This document shows, one piece after another, positions 391 through 4,928 of a DNA stretch of 4,936 nt. Under the pieces are notes generated by a model that was given only the letters and a program-made list of their open reading frames with translations, had not been told where the DNA came from and made no database searches. How positions within the stretch are numbered: the first letter of the stretch is position 1; every line of letters starts with the position of its first letter. The DNA lies in the IMG/VR virus record IMGVR_UViG_3300014893_000019; one strand, written 5' to 3'. A program made the translations under genes and the position numbers. Source of the stretch: a virus. Lineage: Duplodnaviria > Heunggongvirae > Uroviricota > Caudoviricetes.

Positions 391-1017
391 TTAGAGTTCG
401 TATTGAACTCCTTTGACTACACCAATGATAAGGCAATTACCATTGATAGGGATGTTGGGATACCGAGGATTTAATGGCACTAAAAACTTTTGAGGGCCAT
501 CGATGACTAATTTTTTTACTGTAGCTTCGTTTGTTCCATCAAGTCGAGCGATGACTATTTTTCCATGACGAGGTTCTGCATCTGGATCTACAATCACTGT
601 TGCGCCTTCTGGTATTGTTGGGAGGCCATTAGGGTTAGTCATGGAGTCACCTTTAACCTCTAATGCAAATGAGTTATCACCAATCTTTAATGATGTATCT
701 ACCCACTTGTCCACTTCACTAAACACTTCTGCTGCCCTGCACTCAGTAAACTGCCCAGCCTGAACCCACGATATTACAGGAACTCTGCGCATGTTTGTGA
801 CGAGTTTGCCTTCAAACTCAGCACCATAAAGAATGTAATCTATTGACGTATTGAAGAACTTCGCTAATTTCGAAAGTGCCTCCCCACCAGGGGTATTGAT
901 GTCTTTCTCCCAGTACCCCACAGCAACGTCGCTTACTCCACAAAATTTACCCAATTCTTTCTGGGACGTTCCGGTAACTCTTCTCAGAGCTTTTATACGC
1001 TGACCAACCGTTTCCAT
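391..1017 (-). CDS. Phage CI-type repressor: N-terminal XRE-like HTH plus C-terminal S24 (LexA/UmuD-like) autopeptidase domain
   Basis: 208-aa ORF. N-terminus QRIKALRRVTGTSQKELGKFCGVSDVAVGYWE is a typical HTH. C-terminal domain has the S24 serine motif GDSM (Ser125, plus 643..645) and a downstream lysine (VKKL, ~168/169). An Ala-Gly candidate cleavage site lies in the linker (VQAGQ, residues 87-88). It is divergent from a cro-like gene across an AT-rich operator region. Confidence 0.9.
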   Translation of the reverse strand: METVGQRIKALRRVTGTSQKELGKFCGVSDVAVGYWEKDINTPGGEALSKLAKFFNTSIDYILYGAEFEGKLVTNMRRVPVISWVQAGQFTECRAAEVFSEVDKWVDTSLKIGDNSFALEVKGDSMTNPNGLPTIPEGATVIVDPDAEPRHGKIVIARLDGTNEATVKKLVIDGPQKFLVPLNPRYPNIPINGNCLIIGVVKGVQYEL

Positions 1018-1904: not shown

Positions 1905-2737
1905 ACAGTTTAACGGCAAATAACCGTTTGTCGCAACAGCTGGTGGTCAGTGTCGCTGAACACCTGTTGTTACGGCATGAATGCAGATTACCAAATCACC
2001 TGGCTGTAAGTAACCACAGAGAACTTTACCTGACTGTGGGGGGCGAGTTGTGCGGGAACTTAACCGCTGGTTTCGTGACGGAAGAGGGCTTTATGTCCAT
2101 GTTATTCGTTGGGAACCAGAAACACAGCGCGTTATCTATCTTCGCAAAGACTACCCGCATGAGTGCTTTAGTCCTTTGTGGAAATTCAGGCGTGATTTTG
2201 TTGAGTGTGAAGGACCACCAGCACATTGATTCTGCCATTCCGGGACGTTACACTGTTCAGGCACCTTATAAAGCGGGTGACGGGATTGGCGTCCTGGAAA
2301 TGTTATCGGCGATATATGACGCGCCAGCGTCTTTTTTATCGTCTGCGTCTGTGCACACCCAAATTATGGTGGGCTGGACGGGGGCACCGAAAGGTGCGCC
2401 GGTTTCCGATAACGCCGGTTACGCCAACCCCGTTCAGTTCACCACCAGCGAAATTGGCGTTTCCGGTGGTGAAGGTAATTCACTGTTATCGGAGGCTGCC
2501 ATCATGGCTACTGTCCCAGCCCTCACTCGTCTGAATGATGAAGACTTACATAAACTCAGTTATGTAACAACTGCACTACGTGCTCTGCGCAAGGTAACTC
2601 TTTCGGATCCGCAGGCGCATCAGGTTTTGGTAGAAACCCTTCTTAACTTGCAGGCTGAACGTATTCGTCTGGCGGATAAGGCTAATTTTCATATTCACCG
2701 TCTCCTGAATATCAGCGGAGGGCATCGTCATGCTTAA
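1901..2737 (+). CDS. Hypothetical protein (278 aa), no domain recognised
   Basis: Uninterrupted 278-codon frame. ATG at 1901 overlaps the upstream stop (ATGA) and GGAG lies 10 nt upstream. The C-terminal half (from about 2230) looks like ordinary protein with predicted helical segments; the N-terminal third is compositionally odd (rich in L/S/H/N, poor in K/D). Stop overlaps the next gene's start. Confidence 0.55.
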   Translation: MNSLTANNRLSQQLVVSVAEHLLLRHECRLPNHLAVSNHRELYLTVGGELCGNLTAGFVTEEGFMSMLFVGNQKHSALSIFAKTTRMSALVLCGNSGVILLSVKDHQHIDSAIPGRYTVQAPYKAGDGIGVLEMLSAIYDAPASFLSSASVHTQIMVGWTGAPKGAPVSDNAGYANPVQFTTSEIGVSGGEGNSLLSEAAIMATVPALTRLNDEDLHKLSYVTTALRALRKVTLSDPQAHQVLVETLLNLQAERIRLADKANFHIHRLLNISGGHRHA

Positions 2738-2966
2738 TCCGTTGATCCTCAATATTTGCCGTTTGCTTCAGCGTAAAAAAACATCAATTCCTACAGTTGG
2801 GCAGTGGTACACCACGCCTGCAGGGCATGTTCTACGTGTTAGCCTGGTTGACCGTGAATGTCAGAAGGTGATTTGTGAACCGCTGGGCCGTAATTACCGC
2901 ATCAGTATGCCGCTTATAGCCTTTTGCTCCGGAAAAAACATGAAGCATCTCGGAGGTGCAGCATGA
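2730..2966 (+). CDS. Hypothetical small protein (78 aa), basic, four cysteines
   Basis: ATG at 2730 with GGAGG (2717..2721) 8 nt upstream. Overlaps the upstream stop (ATGCTTAA) and its own stop overlaps the rep start (ATGA at 2963..2966). Cysteines at positions 10, 44, 49 and 66. No family recognised. Confidence 0.5.
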   Translation: MLNPLILNICRLLQRKKTSIPTVGQWYTTPAGHVLRVSLVDRECQKVICEPLGRNYRISMPLIAFCSGKNMKHLGGAA

Positions 2967-3793
2967 GTATGGAGCTGATGGTTAAAGCGATGAAAATTCG
3001 AGTGGGTAATCCATTGCGAAAACTGGTTCTGATCAAGCTGGCTGATAATGCCAGCGATCAGGGTGAGTGCTGGCCCAGCTACCAGCATATTGCTGACCAG
3101 TGCGAGATTAGCAAACGTTCTGTGATGAATCATATTGCGGCCCTTTGTGATTCCGGGCTGGTAAAAAAAGTCACCCGGAAAGGTGAAAAAGGTAACTCAA
3201 GTAATATCTATCTCCTTCATCTTGATGGTGCAGGAGATTCACTAGGGGGTAGTGCAAATAATTCACTATCTGGTGCAGCAAATTCACCAGGTAGTGCAGG
3301 AGTTGCACCAGGGGGTGGTGCAGGAGATTCACCCAGAACCAGTCACTCTTTTGAACCAGTCAAAGAACCAGTCAAAGAACCAGTCAATGAACCAATAGCT
3401 GTTGGTGCATCTGCTGATGAGTCTGTGCGAGTTCGTTCAAACCGACCGGAATACTCTCCGGAGTTTGAGCAGGCATGGCTGGCATACCCCAAACGTGCTG
3501 GTGGCAATTCAAAATCTGCAGCCTTCAAAGCCTGGAAAGCCCGTTTGAATGAGGGGGTAAAACCCGAAACCATGCTGGAAGGTGTGAAACGCTACGCGGG
3601 CTGGGTATCTGCGATGGGTAACAGCGGCACACAATTTGTGAAACAGGCTGTCACGTTCTTTGGTCCGGATCGTCATTTCGAAGAATCCTGGGAAGTTCCT
3701 GCGGTATCTGCAGCCAGACGCGAGGACCCGTACTTCAAAGCCAGTTACGACAACGTGGACTACAGCCAGATCCCGGCAGGATTCAGGGGGTAA
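2963..3793 (+). CDS. Phage replication initiator (lambda O-like organisation): N-terminal winged-helix HTH_36-type domain, Gly/Ser/Ala- and Pro-rich linker, C-terminal domain
   Basis: ATG at 2963 with GGAGGT (2952..2957) 5 nt upstream; the track's longer 2924 version starts at TTG without an SD. N-terminus LRKLVLIKLADNASDQGECWPSYQHIADQCEISKRSVMNHIAALCDSGLV...SSNIYLL matches the recalled HTH_36 (PF13730) replication-protein pattern. The central low-complexity linker is encoded by DNA repeats. Conserved-looking C-terminus (EQAWLAYPKRAGG...AAFKAWKARL). Confidence 0.85.
   Translation: MSMELMVKAMKIRVGNPLRKLVLIKLADNASDQGECWPSYQHIADQCEISKRSVMNHIAALCDSGLVKKVTRKGEKGNSSNIYLLHLDGAGDSLGGSANNSLSGAANSPGSAGVAPGGGAGDSPRTSHSFEPVKEPVKEPVNEPIAVGASADESVRVRSNRPEYSPEFEQAWLAYPKRAGGNSKSAAFKAWKARLNEGVKPETMLEGVKRYAGWVSAMGNSGTQFVKQAVTFFGPDRHFEESWEVPAVSAARREDPYFKASYDNVDYSQIPAGFRG
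3226..3396 (+). repeat. Iteron-like direct repeats inside the replication initiator gene; candidate origin of replication
   Basis: Identical 17-mer TGGTGCAGGAGATTCAC at 3226..3242 and 3316..3332. Between them are about five imperfect ~21-23-bp units sharing GGTGCAG/GTAGTGCA and ATTCAC cores (unit starts near 3227, 3248, 3272, 3290, 3317). Followed by three tandem 12-bp units GAACCAGTCAAA/T (3353..3388), with partial copies at 3337..3347 and 3389..3396. The repeats are directly visible; the origin function is inferred. Confidence 0.6.
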
Positions 3794-3795
3794 TC

Positions 3796-4275
3796 ATGAG
3801 TCTTTTGAATGAAGTTCAGAAATTCATTGAAGCCCATCCGGGGTGTACTTCCGGAGACATTGCGGATGCTTTTGCAGGTTACTCACGGCAGCGCGTTCTG
3901 CAGTCAGCAAGCAAGTTACGTCAGAGTGGGCGTGTGGCTNNNNNNNNNNNNNNNNNNNNNNNNNNNNNNNNNNNNNNNNNNNNNNNNNNNNNNNNNNNNN
4001 NNNNNNNNNNNNNNNNNNNNCCTGTGCGCAATTTCTATGTCGGCACTAACGATCCCCGGGTGATTTTGTGCCTGACCCGCCAGGCTGAAGAACTGGAGTC
4101 CAGGGGCTTATACCGTCGTGCTGCAACCGTGTGGATGGCGGCATTCCGTGAAAGCCACTCCCAGCCAGAACGAAACAATTTTCTGGCACGTCGTGAGCGG
4201 TGCTTACGGAAAAGCAGCAAGCGCGCTGTATCGGGTGATGAGTGGTATCTGTCAGGGAATTACGTGGGGGCTTAA
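3796..4275 (+). CDS. ORF interrupted by an N run; the C-terminal part resembles a PerC-family transcriptional regulator, the N-terminal part looks like a small winged-helix/HTH protein. May be one gene or two.
   Basis: ATG at 3796 with GGGGG (3786..3790) 5 nt upstream, 2 nt after the rep stop. The frame is continuous across the 81-nt N run only if that is the true length. The C-terminal segment QAEELESRGLYRRAATVWMAAF...RRERCLRK recalls the PerC/Pch signature. Stop overlaps the Dam start (TAATG). Confidence 0.45.
   Translation: MSLLNEVQKFIEAHPGCTSGDIADAFAGYSRQRVLQSASKLRQSGRVAXXXXXXXXXXXXXXXXXXXXXXXXXXXPVRNFYVGTNDPRVILCLTRQAEELESRGLYRRAATVWMAAFRESHSQPERNNFLARRERCLRKSSKRAVSGDEWYLSGNYVGA
3940..4020. 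other. Run of 81 ambiguous bases (assembly gap or masked sequence)
   Basis: Literal n characters at 3940..4020. True length and content are unknown, so any coding call across it is provisional. Confidence 1.
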
Positions 4276-4928
4276 TGAGTAATAAATATTGCCAGGAGCT
4301 GGTGGAGCTGCGGAACAAACCAGCCCATGAACTGAAGGAAGTGGGCGATCAGTGGCGCACGCCGGATAACATTTTCTGGGGAATTAACACCCTGTTTGGC
4401 CCGTTTGTCCTGGATCTGTTTACTGACGGTGATAACGCCAAATGTACCGCGTATTACACGGCGGAAGACAACGCGCTGGCGCATGACTGGTCAGAACGTC
4501 TTGCGGAGCTTAAAGGTGCTGCCTTTGGTAATCCCCCATACAGCCGCGCCAGTCAGCATGAGGGGCAATACATCACCGGCATGCGTTACATCATGAAACA
4601 TGCCAGTGCCATGCGTGATAAAGGCGGGCGCTATGTTTTCCTGATCAAAGCTGCCACCAGCGAAGTGTGGTGGCCGGAAGATGCAGATCATATTGCTTTT
4701 ATTCGCGGGCGTATTGGTTTTGAACTGCCTGCCTGGTTTATCCCGAAAGATGAGAAGCAGGTGCCGACAGGCGCTTTCTTCGCTGGTGCTATTGCTGTTT
4801 TCGACAAGACCTGGAAGGGACCGGCAATCAGCTACATCGGGCGCGATGAACTTGAGGCATGTGGTGAGGCGTTTCTGGCGCAGGTTCGCCAGCAGGCGGA
4901 AAAACTGGTCAGGGAGATGGCGGCATGA
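4275..4928 (+). CDS. Phage-type DNA N6-adenine methyltransferase (Dam family, PF05869-like)
   Basis: 217 aa from ATG 4275 with GGGGG 4 nt upstream; the track's 4242 start is a GTG without an SD. Contains the catalytic-type motif NPPY (GNPPYS, nt 4530..4541) and an N-terminal WRTPDNIFWGINTLFGPFVLDLFTDGDNAKCTAYYT region typical of small phage Dam methylases as I recall them. Start overlaps the previous stop. Confidence 0.85.
   Translation: MSNKYCQELVELRNKPAHELKEVGDQWRTPDNIFWGINTLFGPFVLDLFTDGDNAKCTAYYTAEDNALAHDWSERLAELKGAAFGNPPYSRASQHEGQYITGMRYIMKHASAMRDKGGRYVFLIKAATSEVWWPEDADHIAFIRGRIGFELPAWFIPKDEKQVPTGAFFAGAIAVFDKTWKGPAISYIGRDELEACGEAFLAQVRQQAEKLVREMAA

What the first reader, a model, noticed from the sequence alone, without database searches (positions are those of the whole stretch)
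3226..3396. Candidate origin of replication: iteron array inside the replication initiator gene
Tandem, roughly helical-turn-spaced repeats (17-mer TGGTGCAGGAGATTCAC twice, about five related ~22-bp units, then three tandem GAACCAGTCAAA units) lie in the stretch encoding the low-complexity linker GAGDSLGGSANN...EPVKEPVKEPVNEP. In lambda the origin lies within the O gene in the linker-coding region and is bound by the O N-terminal domain. Unlike lambda, no clear AT-rich unwinding element follows the repeats here.
Basis: partly seen in the sequence, partly recalled or inferred. Interest (0 to 1): 0.5.

Follow-up and report, generated by a model that had tools for sequence, protein, structure and literature searches.

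The report
Phage replication origin inside initiator gene
The repeats are real, and comparison with about 190 related loci shows they are conserved as DNA rather than as protein: five binding sites for the phage's own replication initiator, followed by an invariant 38-bp element. This is very likely a lambda-style origin of replication, in a widespread initiator family with no experimental study that I could find.

Summary
The window is the early-right region of a lambdoid prophage: cI, cro, a cII-like gene, an Ash-like gene, the replication gene at 2963-3793, a PerC-like gene and dam.

- **Iterons.** Five copies of GTGCA-N5-TKCAC lie at 3228-3332, spaced 24/21/21/24 bp. The full site is a 19-bp imperfect palindrome, TRGTGMA-N5-TKCACYA. 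Six exact matches occur in the window against 0.04 expected.
- **GAACCAGTCA repeats.** Four copies follow at 3336-3386.
- **Selection acts on DNA.** In homologues from Enterobacterales, Pseudomonas, Vibrio, Shewanella, Marinomonas and others, the same iteron occurs in two reading frames (GAxDS or VVQEIH) and in both orientations within one gene.
- **Covariation.** The iteron sequence changes with the initiator's recognition helix.
- **Register.** The last iteron always ends 2 nt before an invariant element, CCCAGAAYCAGTCACTCTYYTGAAYCAGTCAWNGAACC.
- **Synonymous sites.** They are frozen in this element: top-codon fraction 0.94 against 0.55 in the N-domain.
- **A separate element.** The GAACCAGTCAAA units are a slippage expansion of this element, not iterons.
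- **Protein context.** All of this encodes a predicted disordered linker between a winged-helix domain and a helical C-domain.

The best reading is a lambda-like origin with an unusual, only weakly AT-enriched core. Binding and origin activity are inferred, not shown.

The parts
2963..3793 (+). Replication initiator gene (276 aa). The first ATG giving MSMELMVKAM..., as in all homologues, is taken as the start.
   Evidence: ORF list. Pfam HTH_36, E=2.9e-11. PHROG 270 'replication initiation protein', E=1.7e-88, and PHROG 8540 'replication initiation O-like'. Annotated as replication protein / replication protein O in phages mEp460, cdtI, PhiR63_1 and Stx2a_1447.
2963..3226 (+). Coding region of the N-terminal winged-helix DNA-binding domain (aa 1-88). 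The recognition helix is about aa 51-64 (SKRSVMNHIAAL).
   Evidence: AlphaFold2 pLDDT 80-93 with H-H-H-H-E-E topology. Foldseek finds generic winged-helix folds, including DnaD N-domain 2v79; none reaches E<1e-3. Helix residues co-vary with iteron class.
3187..3226 (.). Left flank of the array and the least stable 40-bp duplex in the gene (G+C about 0.33). It is a possible alternative unwinding site.
   Evidence: z=+2.4. AT enrichment of +0.08 to +0.11 at -140 to -120 across 77 homologues. It encodes the conserved wing KGNSSNIYLLHLD, so the AT richness may be a by-product of the coding.
3226..3244 (.). Iteron 1: TGGTGCAGGAGATTCACTA (core 3228-3242)
3250..3268 (.). Iteron 2: TAGTGCAAATAATTCACTA (core 3252-3266)
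3271..3289 (.). Iteron 3: TGGTGCAGCAAATTCACCA (core 3273-3287)
3292..3310 (.). Iteron 4: TAGTGCAGGAGTTGCACCA (core 3294-3308; both half-sites are GTGCA)
3316..3334 (.). Iteron 5: TGGTGCAGGAGATTCACCC (core 3318-3332). It abuts the invariant element.
   Evidence: The last iteron ends exactly 2 nt (CC) before AGAAYC in 78 of 78 loci.
3332..3369 (+). Family-wide invariant 38-bp element, CCCAGAACCAGTCACTCTTTTGAACCAGTCAAAGAACC (encodes PRTSHSFEPVKEP). It is the candidate origin core: an unwinding or helicase-entry site, or a second initiator-binding site.
   Evidence: Per-base conservation of 0.95-1.00 at most positions in 75 distinct sequences. Synonymous sites are frozen. In viral contigs it is found only inside this N-domain family.
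3353..3394 (+). Tandem 12-mers, GAACCAGTCAAA x3.5. This is a window-specific slippage expansion of the 3' part of the invariant element (EPVKEPVKEPVNEP).
   Evidence: TRF. The copy number of GAAYCAGTCA varies from 2 to 5 among 87 close relatives; the window has 4 and the common type has 3.
3446..3652 (+). Coding region of the helical C-terminal domain (about aa 162-230). It is presumed to be the helicase or loader recruitment module.
   Evidence: AlphaFold2 helices at 166-229, pLDDT 65-77. PHROG hits to 'DnaD-like helicase loader' and 'primosomal protein' families over aa 150-253. No Pfam family matches.

Best explanation
Bases 3226-3394 are the cis-acting replication origin of this lambdoid prophage, embedded in the linker-coding part of its own initiator gene.

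Proposed mechanism:
1. Dimers of the initiator's N-terminal winged-helix domain bind the five 19-bp imperfect palindromes (TRGTGMA-N5-TKCACYA). The sites are spaced 21-24 bp apart, about two helical turns, so they lie on roughly one face of the DNA. Together they build an O-some-like nucleoprotein complex.
2. The complex acts on the adjacent 38-bp element. This element is invariant across the family, always starts one helical turn from the centre of the last iteron, and is locally AT-enriched. It contains GAAYCAGTCA direct repeats.
3. That element is where the duplex is opened, or where the helicase is handed over.
4. The C-terminal domain recruits the replicative helicase. The window and phage mEp460 encode no loader or helicase, so this is probably host DnaB, perhaps with DnaC.

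Shown here: the repeats exist, selection acts on the DNA, iteron sequence co-varies with the recognition helix, the register is fixed, the element is invariant, and the linker is predicted to be disordered.

Inferred: physical binding, unwinding at the element, helicase recruitment and origin activity.
For: 1. **Non-chance repeats.** Six matches against 0.04 expected.
2. **Two reading frames.** In 28 of 48 distinct class-A linkers, one iteron sits in a second reading frame. The peptide then reads VVQEIH instead of GAxDS, and the spacings 23+22 restore the frame.
3. **Both orientations.** GTGCA..TTCAC occurs 75 times and its reverse complement GTGAA..TGCAC 58 times.
4. **Spacing.** 161 of 173 neighbouring pairs are 21-24 bp apart.
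5. **Site anatomy.** The flanking positions T(-1) and Y(+16) are conserved while the central 5 bp are not, giving a 19-bp dyad.
6. **Covariation with the recognition helix**:
   - xRSVMNHI goes with GTGMA..TKCAC
   - SKRSVMRHI or DKRTAMRHI goes with GTGAC..GTCAC
   - RSTVKxHIR goes with GGGGCR..
   - DRSTVRKHIK goes with TGTAGGC..
   - SKSAVKAHI goes with TGTGCC..
7. **Copy-number variation.** Iteron number varies from 4 to 8 among near-identical phages as in-frame indels. This parallels lambda (4 iterons) against Stx phages (6) (PMC7466680).
8. **Frozen synonymous sites in the 38-bp element.** Arg is AGA in 71 of 71 codons, Ser is AGT in 72 of 72, and Ser is TCT in 68 of 68. The mean top-codon fraction is 0.94, against 0.55 at 40 conserved N-domain codons in the same sequences (Mann-Whitney p=3.6e-5). 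Spacer positions meanwhile tolerate radical amino-acid changes (F/S/L/P and K/N/I/M/T).
9. **Fixed register.** The element follows the last iteron at the same distance in 78 of 78 loci, across all specificity classes.
10. **Linkage to the N-domain.** The element travels with the N-domain, not the C-domain. It is joined to 8 unrelated C-terminal clusters. It is absent from phiP27, which shares the C-domain but has a different N-domain. It lies inside this N-domain family in 110 of 111 evaluable viral-contig hits.
11. **Local AT enrichment.** The element is a local AT maximum (+0.07 to +0.13) averaged over 77 homologues.
12. **Disordered linker.** Residues 91-161 have pLDDT about 30, so the region can absorb frame and orientation changes.
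13. **Gene context.** The gene lies downstream of cro and the cII-like gene. In relatives it is followed by DnaC-like, DnaB-like or primase-helicase genes.
Against: - There is no experimental evidence for binding or origin function for any member of this family. I found none in the library I searched.
- There is no classical AT-rich DUE. The element has 40-47% G+C, and its duplex stability is only about 1 sd below the window average.
- The least stable segment is on the other side of the array, at 3187-3226.
- There is no excess of DnaA boxes, no promoter-like site and no unusual single-strand structure.
- The covariation table is not corrected for phylogeny. Many Pseudomonas loci share ancestry.
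- The initiator function of the protein itself rests on annotation and gene context.
Confidence: 0.75

Rival explanations
1. The repeats are only a low-complexity, slippage-prone Gly/Ser/Ala/Pro protein linker. The DNA periodicity is a by-product and has no cis-acting role.
For: The region is predicted to be disordered. Copy number varies among close relatives as expected from slippage. In the window itself every unit is in one frame and the spacings are multiples of 3.
Against: - The same DNA motif is kept in a second reading frame and in reverse orientation, which gives unrelated peptides (GAxDS, VVQEIH, SESPA).
- The conserved positions form a dyad with a free 5-bp centre.
- The motif co-varies with the recognition helix.
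- Synonymous sites of the adjacent element are frozen.
Confidence: 0.03
2. The sites are genuine initiator-binding sites but serve control rather than initiation: autoregulation, titration or handcuffing, or exclusion of related phages. The actual origin lies elsewhere in the phage genome.
For: - Iterons in plasmids and in P1 also act in copy-number control (established knowledge).
- No strong AT-rich DUE adjoins the array.
- Nothing outside this 4.9-kb window could be examined for this particular prophage.
Against: - The array and the invariant element form a fixed cassette that accompanies the N-domain through at least 8 C-domain exchanges and many phage backgrounds. This is expected of an origin specificity module.
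- No second cluster of sites occurs within +/-1.5 kb in 48 diverse loci: 1 stray site in 152 kb.
- Where the arrangement has been tested, in lambda, Stx phages and P22 (PMC7466680, and established knowledge), the intragenic iterons are the origin.
Confidence: 0.12
3. The invariant 38-bp element is not an unwinding or helicase-entry site. It might be kept as a homologous-recombination junction between exchangeable modules (a 'boundary sequence'), as a short linear peptide motif (PRTSHSFEPV) that binds a host protein, or as a host-factor (IHF or Fis-like) site.
For: - It lies exactly at the point where C-terminal domains are exchanged.
- The peptide motif is also conserved and lies in a disordered region, where linear motifs typically occur.
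- The element is only modestly AT-rich.
Against: - A peptide motif does not explain codon invariance: one codon is used out of up to six.
- A peptide motif also does not explain the tolerance of F/S/L/P and K/N/I/M/T at the DNA spacer positions.
- A pure recombination junction would not need a fixed 2-nt register to the last iteron, nor internal GAAYCAGTCA direct repeats.
- No convincing IHF or DnaA consensus is present (and inspection).
Confidence: 0.15

Closest known systems
Bacteriophage lambda O protein and ori-lambda, with the 6-iteron origins of Stx phages 933W and P27
   Same: - The origin lies inside the initiator gene, in the segment between the N-terminal DNA-binding domain and the C-terminal partner-binding domain.
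- The iterons are 19 bp long with dyad symmetry and are repeated 4-6 times at roughly two-turn spacing.
- Extra iterons appear as in-frame insertions in the protein (PMC7466680; here).
- The N-domain and iterons form a specificity cassette, and a conserved segment follows the last iteron.
- The gene lies in the pR operon downstream of cro and cII.
   Different: - The N-domain is Pfam HTH_36, not Phage_rep_O; there is no hit at E<=0.01.
- The iteron sequence is unrelated.
- The position of lambda's roughly 40-bp AT-rich tract is taken by a 38-bp element of 45-50% G+C with GAAYCAGTCA direct repeats.
- The window and mEp460 have no P-like loader gene.
- Iterons occur in two frames and in both orientations within one gene.
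Iteron plasmids (RepE/F, pi/R6K, TrfA/RK2, RepA/pPS10)
   Same: - A winged-helix initiator.
- Iterons spaced about 22 bp apart.
- An adjacent element with short direct repeats, analogous to the DUE 13-mers. In RK2 and F the Rep protein binds one strand of that element sequence-specifically (established knowledge; reviewed in PMC4980987 and PMC10797057, which were listed but not read in detail).
   Different: - Plasmid origins lie outside rep.
- Their iterons are direct repeats bound by monomers.
- They have DnaA boxes and a clearly AT-rich DUE. Here there is no DnaA-box excess and no strong AT tract.
Other phage origins embedded in the initiator or replisome-organiser gene (P22 gene 18, SPP1 G38P/oriL, lactococcal TP901-1 and Tuc2009 rep). 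Cited from established knowledge, not checked here.
   Same: Repeats bound by the gene's own product lie inside the coding sequence. The N-domain is DnaD_N-like or winged-helix: a weak DnaD_N hit at E=8e-5 and a 2v79 fold match.
   Different: The protein families and repeat sequences differ. I know of no report of a family-wide invariant element with frozen synonymous sites.

Membership tests
Lambda O initiator family (Pfam Phage_rep_O, PF04492) | Sequence match of the N-terminal domain to the Phage_rep_O profile | tested here: not met
   The Pfam scan at E<=0.01 returns HTH_36, DnaD_N (below its cut-off), B-block_TFIIIC and HTH_20, but no Phage_rep_O.
HTH_36 (PF13730) winged-helix proteins; PHROG 270/8540 'replication initiation (O-like)' | Profile match above the curated threshold | tested here: met
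   HTH_36 scores 43.4 bits against a cut-off of 25. PHROG 270 E=1.7e-88 and PHROG 8540 E=3.6e-61. The PHROG names are annotations, not tested functions.
Lambdoid-type intragenic origin | At least 3 repeats of 15-20 bp with internal dyad symmetry, inside the initiator ORF | tested here: met
   Five 19-bp sites with 5-6 of 7 arm positions complementary.
Lambdoid-type intragenic origin | Repeats located in the linker between the DNA-binding domain and the C-terminal domain | tested here: met
   The iterons encode aa 89-124. The AlphaFold2 model has folded domains at 1-88 and about 162-230, and a disordered region at 91-161.
Lambdoid-type intragenic origin | Repeat sequence matched to the initiator's DNA-binding specificity (cassette covariation among relatives) | tested here: met
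   At least six iteron classes each go with a distinct recognition-helix sequence. The test is not corrected for phylogeny.
Lambdoid-type intragenic origin | AT-rich unwinding region next to the last iteron | tested here: inconclusive
   There is no AT-rich tract in absolute terms: G+C is at least 0.40 and the stability z is about +1. The invariant element is nonetheless a local AT maximum across 77 homologues, +0.07 to +0.13.
Lambdoid-type intragenic origin | Initiator binds the repeats; the fragment supports initiator-dependent replication | not testable with these tools
   Needs EMSA or footprinting and an ori-cloning assay.
Lambdoid-type intragenic origin | Dedicated helicase loader (P-like) encoded downstream | tested here: not met
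   The genes downstream are PerC-like and dam. mEp460 has no helicase or loader between cI and Q. Relatives with other C-termini do carry DnaC-like, DnaB-like or primase-helicase genes.
Iteron-plasmid origin | DnaA boxes in the origin | tested here: not met
   TTWTNCACA with up to 1 mismatch matches 7 times against 9.5 expected, and none lies in 3226-3400.

The most novel reading that the evidence does not exclude
The invariant 38-bp element (CCCAGAAYCAGTCACTCTYYTGAAYCAGTCAWNGAACC) is a previously undescribed, essential origin core. It is shared by a very large family of gammaproteobacterial phage initiators; the protein search returned 5547 relatives at E<=1e-5.

On this reading it is recognised by the invariant part of the winged-helix N-domain, possibly as single-stranded DNA. 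That recognition would not depend on iteron specificity or on which helicase system the C-domain recruits. The element would replace the AT-rich DUE of lambda and be overprinted on a disordered protein linker.
Probability: 0.35. Interest if true: 0.65.

Novelty: new variant of a known kind. Interest (0 to 1): 0.5.

Why it matters
- **Medical and ecological reach.** This replication module drives many Stx2c/Stx2a, cdt and serotype-converting phages of E. coli, Shigella and Salmonella. Relatives occur in Pseudomonas, Vibrio, Xenorhabdus and others. Most databases still call the protein just 'helix-turn-helix domain-containing protein'.
- **Annotation.** Defining its origin gives a concrete feature for annotating these prophages.
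- **Specificity rules.** The recognition helix paired with the half-site predicts incompatibility and cross-replication among prophages.
- **Dual coding.** Protein-binding DNA sites are written in two frames and both orientations inside a disordered linker. This is an unusually clean natural example.
- **Origin opening.** The invariant, non-AT-rich element next to the iterons poses a testable question about how such origins are opened and how the helicase is handed over.

Tried and rejected
- **Mis-spaced pattern.** My first pattern, GTGCAN5TTSCAC, had the wrong spacer and found nothing. It was corrected.
- **Literature search for the 12-mer.** It returned only unrelated primer hits.
- **Five further literature searches.** None found a description of this origin family. 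The 'P27' of PMC7466680 has a lambda-type O, not this protein. The iterons in the Pf-5 paper belong to an ICE oriV.
- **Other sequence signals.** There is no DnaA-box excess, no sigma-70-like promoter in 2900-3900 and no unusual ssDNA folding of 3220-3400 (z=-0.83).
- **Isolated iteron-like palindrome at 2469-2483.** It is present only in the 16 of 81 close relatives that carry the same Ash-like gene. It has no counterpart in 48 diverse loci, so I rejected it as part of the origin.
- **Protein searches with no useful result.** The PDB sequence search gave no hit. NCBIfam gave no meaningful hit. The C-domain has no Pfam family. Foldseek found only generic winged-helix matches at E>=0.015.
- **Small ORF upstream of rep (2730-2966).** It is not homologous to the small ORF at the same position in phage ZF40.
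- **Frameshift reading of the element.** There is no X XXY YYZ slippery site, and the TTT codon varies among homologues.
Full report
**Context.** The window is the early-right region of a lambdoid prophage of Enterobacteriaceae.
- Genes, in order:
  - an S24/HTH cI-type repressor (391-1017, minus strand)
  - a P22-Cro-type gene (1115-1315)
  - a CII/CP76-like gene (1302-1904)
  - an Ash-like gene (1901-2737)
  - a small ORF (2730-2966)
  - a 276-aa protein (2963-3793)
  - a PerC-like activator (3796-4275, interrupted by a run of N at 3940-4020)
  - a Dam methylase (4275-4928)
- The 900 bp around the finding are 97-99.6% identical to isolated phages: PhiR63_1, 2H10, mEp460, Ayreon, cdtI, 1720a-02 and many Stx2c/Stx2a phages. 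There the gene is annotated as 'replication protein', 'replication protein O', 'primosomal protein I' or simply 'helix-turn-helix domain-containing protein'.
- The protein carries an HTH_36 winged helix at aa 17-67. It matches PHROG families named 'replication initiation protein' and 'replication initiation O-like'.
- It does not match the lambda O Pfam family. It has no relative among solved structures by sequence.

- GTGCA-N5-TKCAC occurs at 3228, 3252, 3273, 3294 and 3318, spaced 24, 21, 21 and 24 bp.
- The slightly broader pattern GTGMA-N5-TKCAC matches 6 times in the window against 0.04 expected.
- GAACCAGTCA occurs four times at 3336-3386 against 0.34 expected. Tandem Repeats Finder reports 3.5 copies of a 12-mer at 3353-3394.
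- No AT-rich tract follows: G+C stays at or above 0.40.

**The repeats are conserved as DNA, not as peptide.**
- *Data set.* I collected the homologous region from phage records, from 80 species-representative bacterial genomes and from 80+120 viral contigs. The genomes include Pseudomonas, Xenorhabdus, Photorhabdus, Shewanella, Marinomonas, Aeromonas and Enterobacter.
- *Two reading frames.* In 28 of 48 distinct linkers that carry the same iteron class as the window, one iteron lies in a different reading frame. The identical DNA motif then encodes VVQEIH instead of GAxDS. Neighbouring spacings of 23 and 22 bp replace 21+24 and restore the frame.
- *Both orientations.* The motif occurs as GTGCA..TTCAC 75 times and as GTGAA..TGCAC 58 times. 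The second form gives yet another peptide, SESPA.
- *Spacing.* 161 of 173 neighbour spacings are 21-24 bp, about two helical turns.
- *Site anatomy.* Aligning 216 sites shows conserved flanks, T at -1 and Y at +16, and a nearly free central 5 bp. The unit is therefore a 19-bp imperfect palindrome, TRGTGMA-N5-TKCACYA. That is the anatomy of a site for a dimeric helix-turn-helix protein, and the same length as lambda's iterons.

**Iteron sequence co-varies with the recognition helix**.

| Recognition helix | Iteron |
|---|---|
| (S/T)(K/R/E)RS(V/A)xxH(I/V), as in the window | GTGMA..TKCAC |
| SKRSVMRHI / DKRTAMRHI (Asn56 replaced by Arg) | GTGAC..GTCAC |
| RSTVKxHIR (including the O protein of Stx phage 24B) | GGGGCR..TGCCC/TRACC |
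| DRSTVRKHIK | TGTAGGC..GCCTACA/AAGCACA |
| SKSAVKAHI (Pectobacterium phage ZF40) | TGTGCC..GCACA |
| SKTSVRNHIK | TGGCAGGAAATGGCA |

- The rest of the N-domain is almost invariant. This is the classical signature of an initiator/iteron specificity cassette. The table is not corrected for shared ancestry.
- Among near-identical E. coli phages, 83 of 87 have five iterons. Phage cdtI has eight through a 66-bp duplication, and a few have four. These differences show up as in-frame indels in the protein.
- The same is documented for lambda (4 iterons) against Stx phages (6 iterons, 13 extra residues in O) (PMC7466680).

**A second, unexpected element.**
- *Sequence and register.* Immediately after the last iteron, every homologue carries CCCAGAAYCAGTCACTCTYYTGAAYCAGTCAWNGAACC (window 3332-3369). 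The register is fixed: the last iteron ends 2 nt before AGAAYC in 78 of 78 loci, across all iteron classes.
- *Frozen synonymous sites.* In 75 distinct sequences most positions are 95-100% conserved.
  - Arg is AGA in 71 of 71 codons.
  - Ser is AGT in 72 of 72 and TCT in 68 of 68.
  - His is CAC in 66 of 66.
  - Glu is GAA in 74 of 74, at both Glu positions.
- *Control.* In the same sequences, equally conserved residues of the N-domain use all their synonymous codons. The mean top-codon fraction is 0.55 over 40 N-domain columns, against 0.94 over 9 element columns (Mann-Whitney p=3.6e-5).
- *Tolerated changes.* Positions that vary in the DNA produce radical amino-acid changes (F/S/L/P and K/N/I/M/T). 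The peptide PRTSHSFEPVKEP therefore looks like a consequence of the DNA constraint, not its cause.
- *Linkage to the N-domain.* The element travels with the N-domain, not with the C-domain.
  - It is joined to eight unrelated C-terminal clusters.
  - It is absent from phiP27, which shares this C-domain but has a different N-domain and different repeats.
  - All but one of 111 evaluable occurrences in viral contigs lie in-frame inside this N-domain family.
- *AT content.* Averaged over 77 homologues, the element is a local AT maximum, +0.07 to +0.13 over each locus background.
- *The window's 12-mers.* The 'three tandem GAACCAGTCAAA units' are a slippage expansion of the 3' part of this element. 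The copy number of GAAYCAGTCA ranges from 2 to 5 among close relatives: the common type has 3 and the window has 4. They are not extra iterons.

**Protein architecture.** AlphaFold2 with 29 homologues gives the following:
- a confident winged-helix domain at 1-88 (pLDDT 80-93)
- a disordered stretch at 91-161 (pLDDT about 30)
- a helical domain at about 162-230 (pLDDT 65-77)
- a disordered tail

The iterons (aa 89-124) and the invariant element (aa 124-136) therefore lie in a linker that can tolerate almost any peptide. That explains how DNA sites can be overprinted there in different frames. Fold search finds only generic winged-helix proteins, including the DnaD N-domain, and none is significant. 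The C-domain has no Pfam family but matches PHROGs named 'DnaD-like helicase loader' and 'primosomal protein'.

**Mechanism proposed.**
1. Dimers of the N-domain occupy the five iterons on one face of the helix and build an O-some-like complex.
2. The invariant element starts one helical turn from the centre of the last iteron. It is the site of opening and/or helicase entry, and may be contacted by the invariant part of the N-domain.
3. The C-domain brings in the helicase.

The window, and the plaque-forming phage mEp460 between cI and Q, encode no helicase or loader, so host DnaB, perhaps with DnaC, is the likely partner. Relatives with other C-termini or tails are followed by DnaC-like plus DnaB-like genes (PhiR49_2, phiP27), a DnaB-like helicase (ZF40, Vibrio 381E49-1) or a primase-helicase (24B, Salmonella SF6). 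That pattern fits a recruitment role for the C-terminus. Binding, opening, recruitment and origin activity are all inferred.

**Rivals.**
- *Pure protein-linker or slippage.* This is contradicted by the frame and orientation changes, the dyad anatomy, the covariation and the frozen synonymous sites.
- *Binding sites used only for control, with the origin elsewhere.* This cannot be excluded without experiments. It is disfavoured by the fixed iteron-plus-element cassette and by the absence of any second site cluster nearby: 1 stray site in 152 kb of flanks.
- *Other roles for the 38-bp element.* A recombination-junction role, a peptide motif or a host-factor site remain possible. The first two do not explain codon invariance together with the fixed register.
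- *Other signals.* No DnaA boxes, promoters or unusual single-strand structures were found.
- *Caveat.* The least stable duplex in the gene is on the left side of the array, at 3187-3226 (z=+2.4). It encodes the conserved wing, however, and it shows no comparable signature. I did not test it for selection at the DNA level.

**Comparison and novelty.** In function and layout this is a lambda-type origin. By sequence the initiator is not a member of the lambda O family. The element next to the iterons is a sequence-invariant, only mildly AT-enriched motif with direct repeats, not an AT-rich tract. I found no description of this origin in the searchable literature. Older subscription reviews on phage replication modules could not be checked. 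I therefore rate it a new variant of a known kind. The existence of intragenic iterons is unsurprising. The family-wide invariant element and the two-frame, two-orientation overprinting are the points a specialist would find worth testing.

Noticed in passing
window 2469-2483: An isolated perfect palindrome, GTGAAGGTAATTCAC, matches the iteron pattern. It lies about 750 bp upstream of the array, inside the Ash-like gene. It is present only in the 16 of 81 close relatives that carry this gene. No equivalent stray site occurs in 48 diverse loci, so it is probably fortuitous.
   Followed up: yes
window 3940-4020: A run of 81 N interrupts the PerC-like gene (3796-4275). It is masked or unresolved sequence, so that gene's product cannot be read completely.
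   Followed up: no
window 3720-3793; L005 1001-1825; L008 1432-2358: The C-terminal tail appears to track the helicase system. The window type ends ...DNVDYSQIPAGFRG and has no loader or helicase downstream. PhiR49_2 and phiP27 share the same C-domain but end ...LGAMSDKFGKSSNKLTF, and DnaC-like and DnaB-like genes follow them. This suggests the last roughly 30 residues choose the partner.
   Followed up: partly
L052 (Pseudomonas bharatica), and L239: These are frameshifted copies of the initiator gene. The reading frame runs through the iterons and the invariant element in an alternative frame (...VVQELHPEPVTLLNQ*). The DNA motifs are nevertheless intact.
   Followed up: no
plasmid records H93-H95, H98, H100: Several 38-45 kb records deposited as 'plasmids' carry this gene: E. 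coli CP148393, Salmonella CP077666, Klebsiella CP118695, Microbulbifer CP098024 and Shewanella CP080634. They are probably circular phage genomes captured by assembly, which hints that these elements replicate episomally.
   Followed up: no
window 2730-2966: A small ORF (78 aa, PHROG 1153, function unknown) ends overlapping the start of the initiator gene. It accompanies the gene in SfV-like phages (mEp460, cdtI, 2H10). The small ORF at the same position in phage ZF40 is not homologous.
   Followed up: partly
window 3171-3196, minus strand: A terminator-like hairpin with a T-run lies on the minus strand just upstream of the iteron array. The count is as expected by chance.
   Followed up: no
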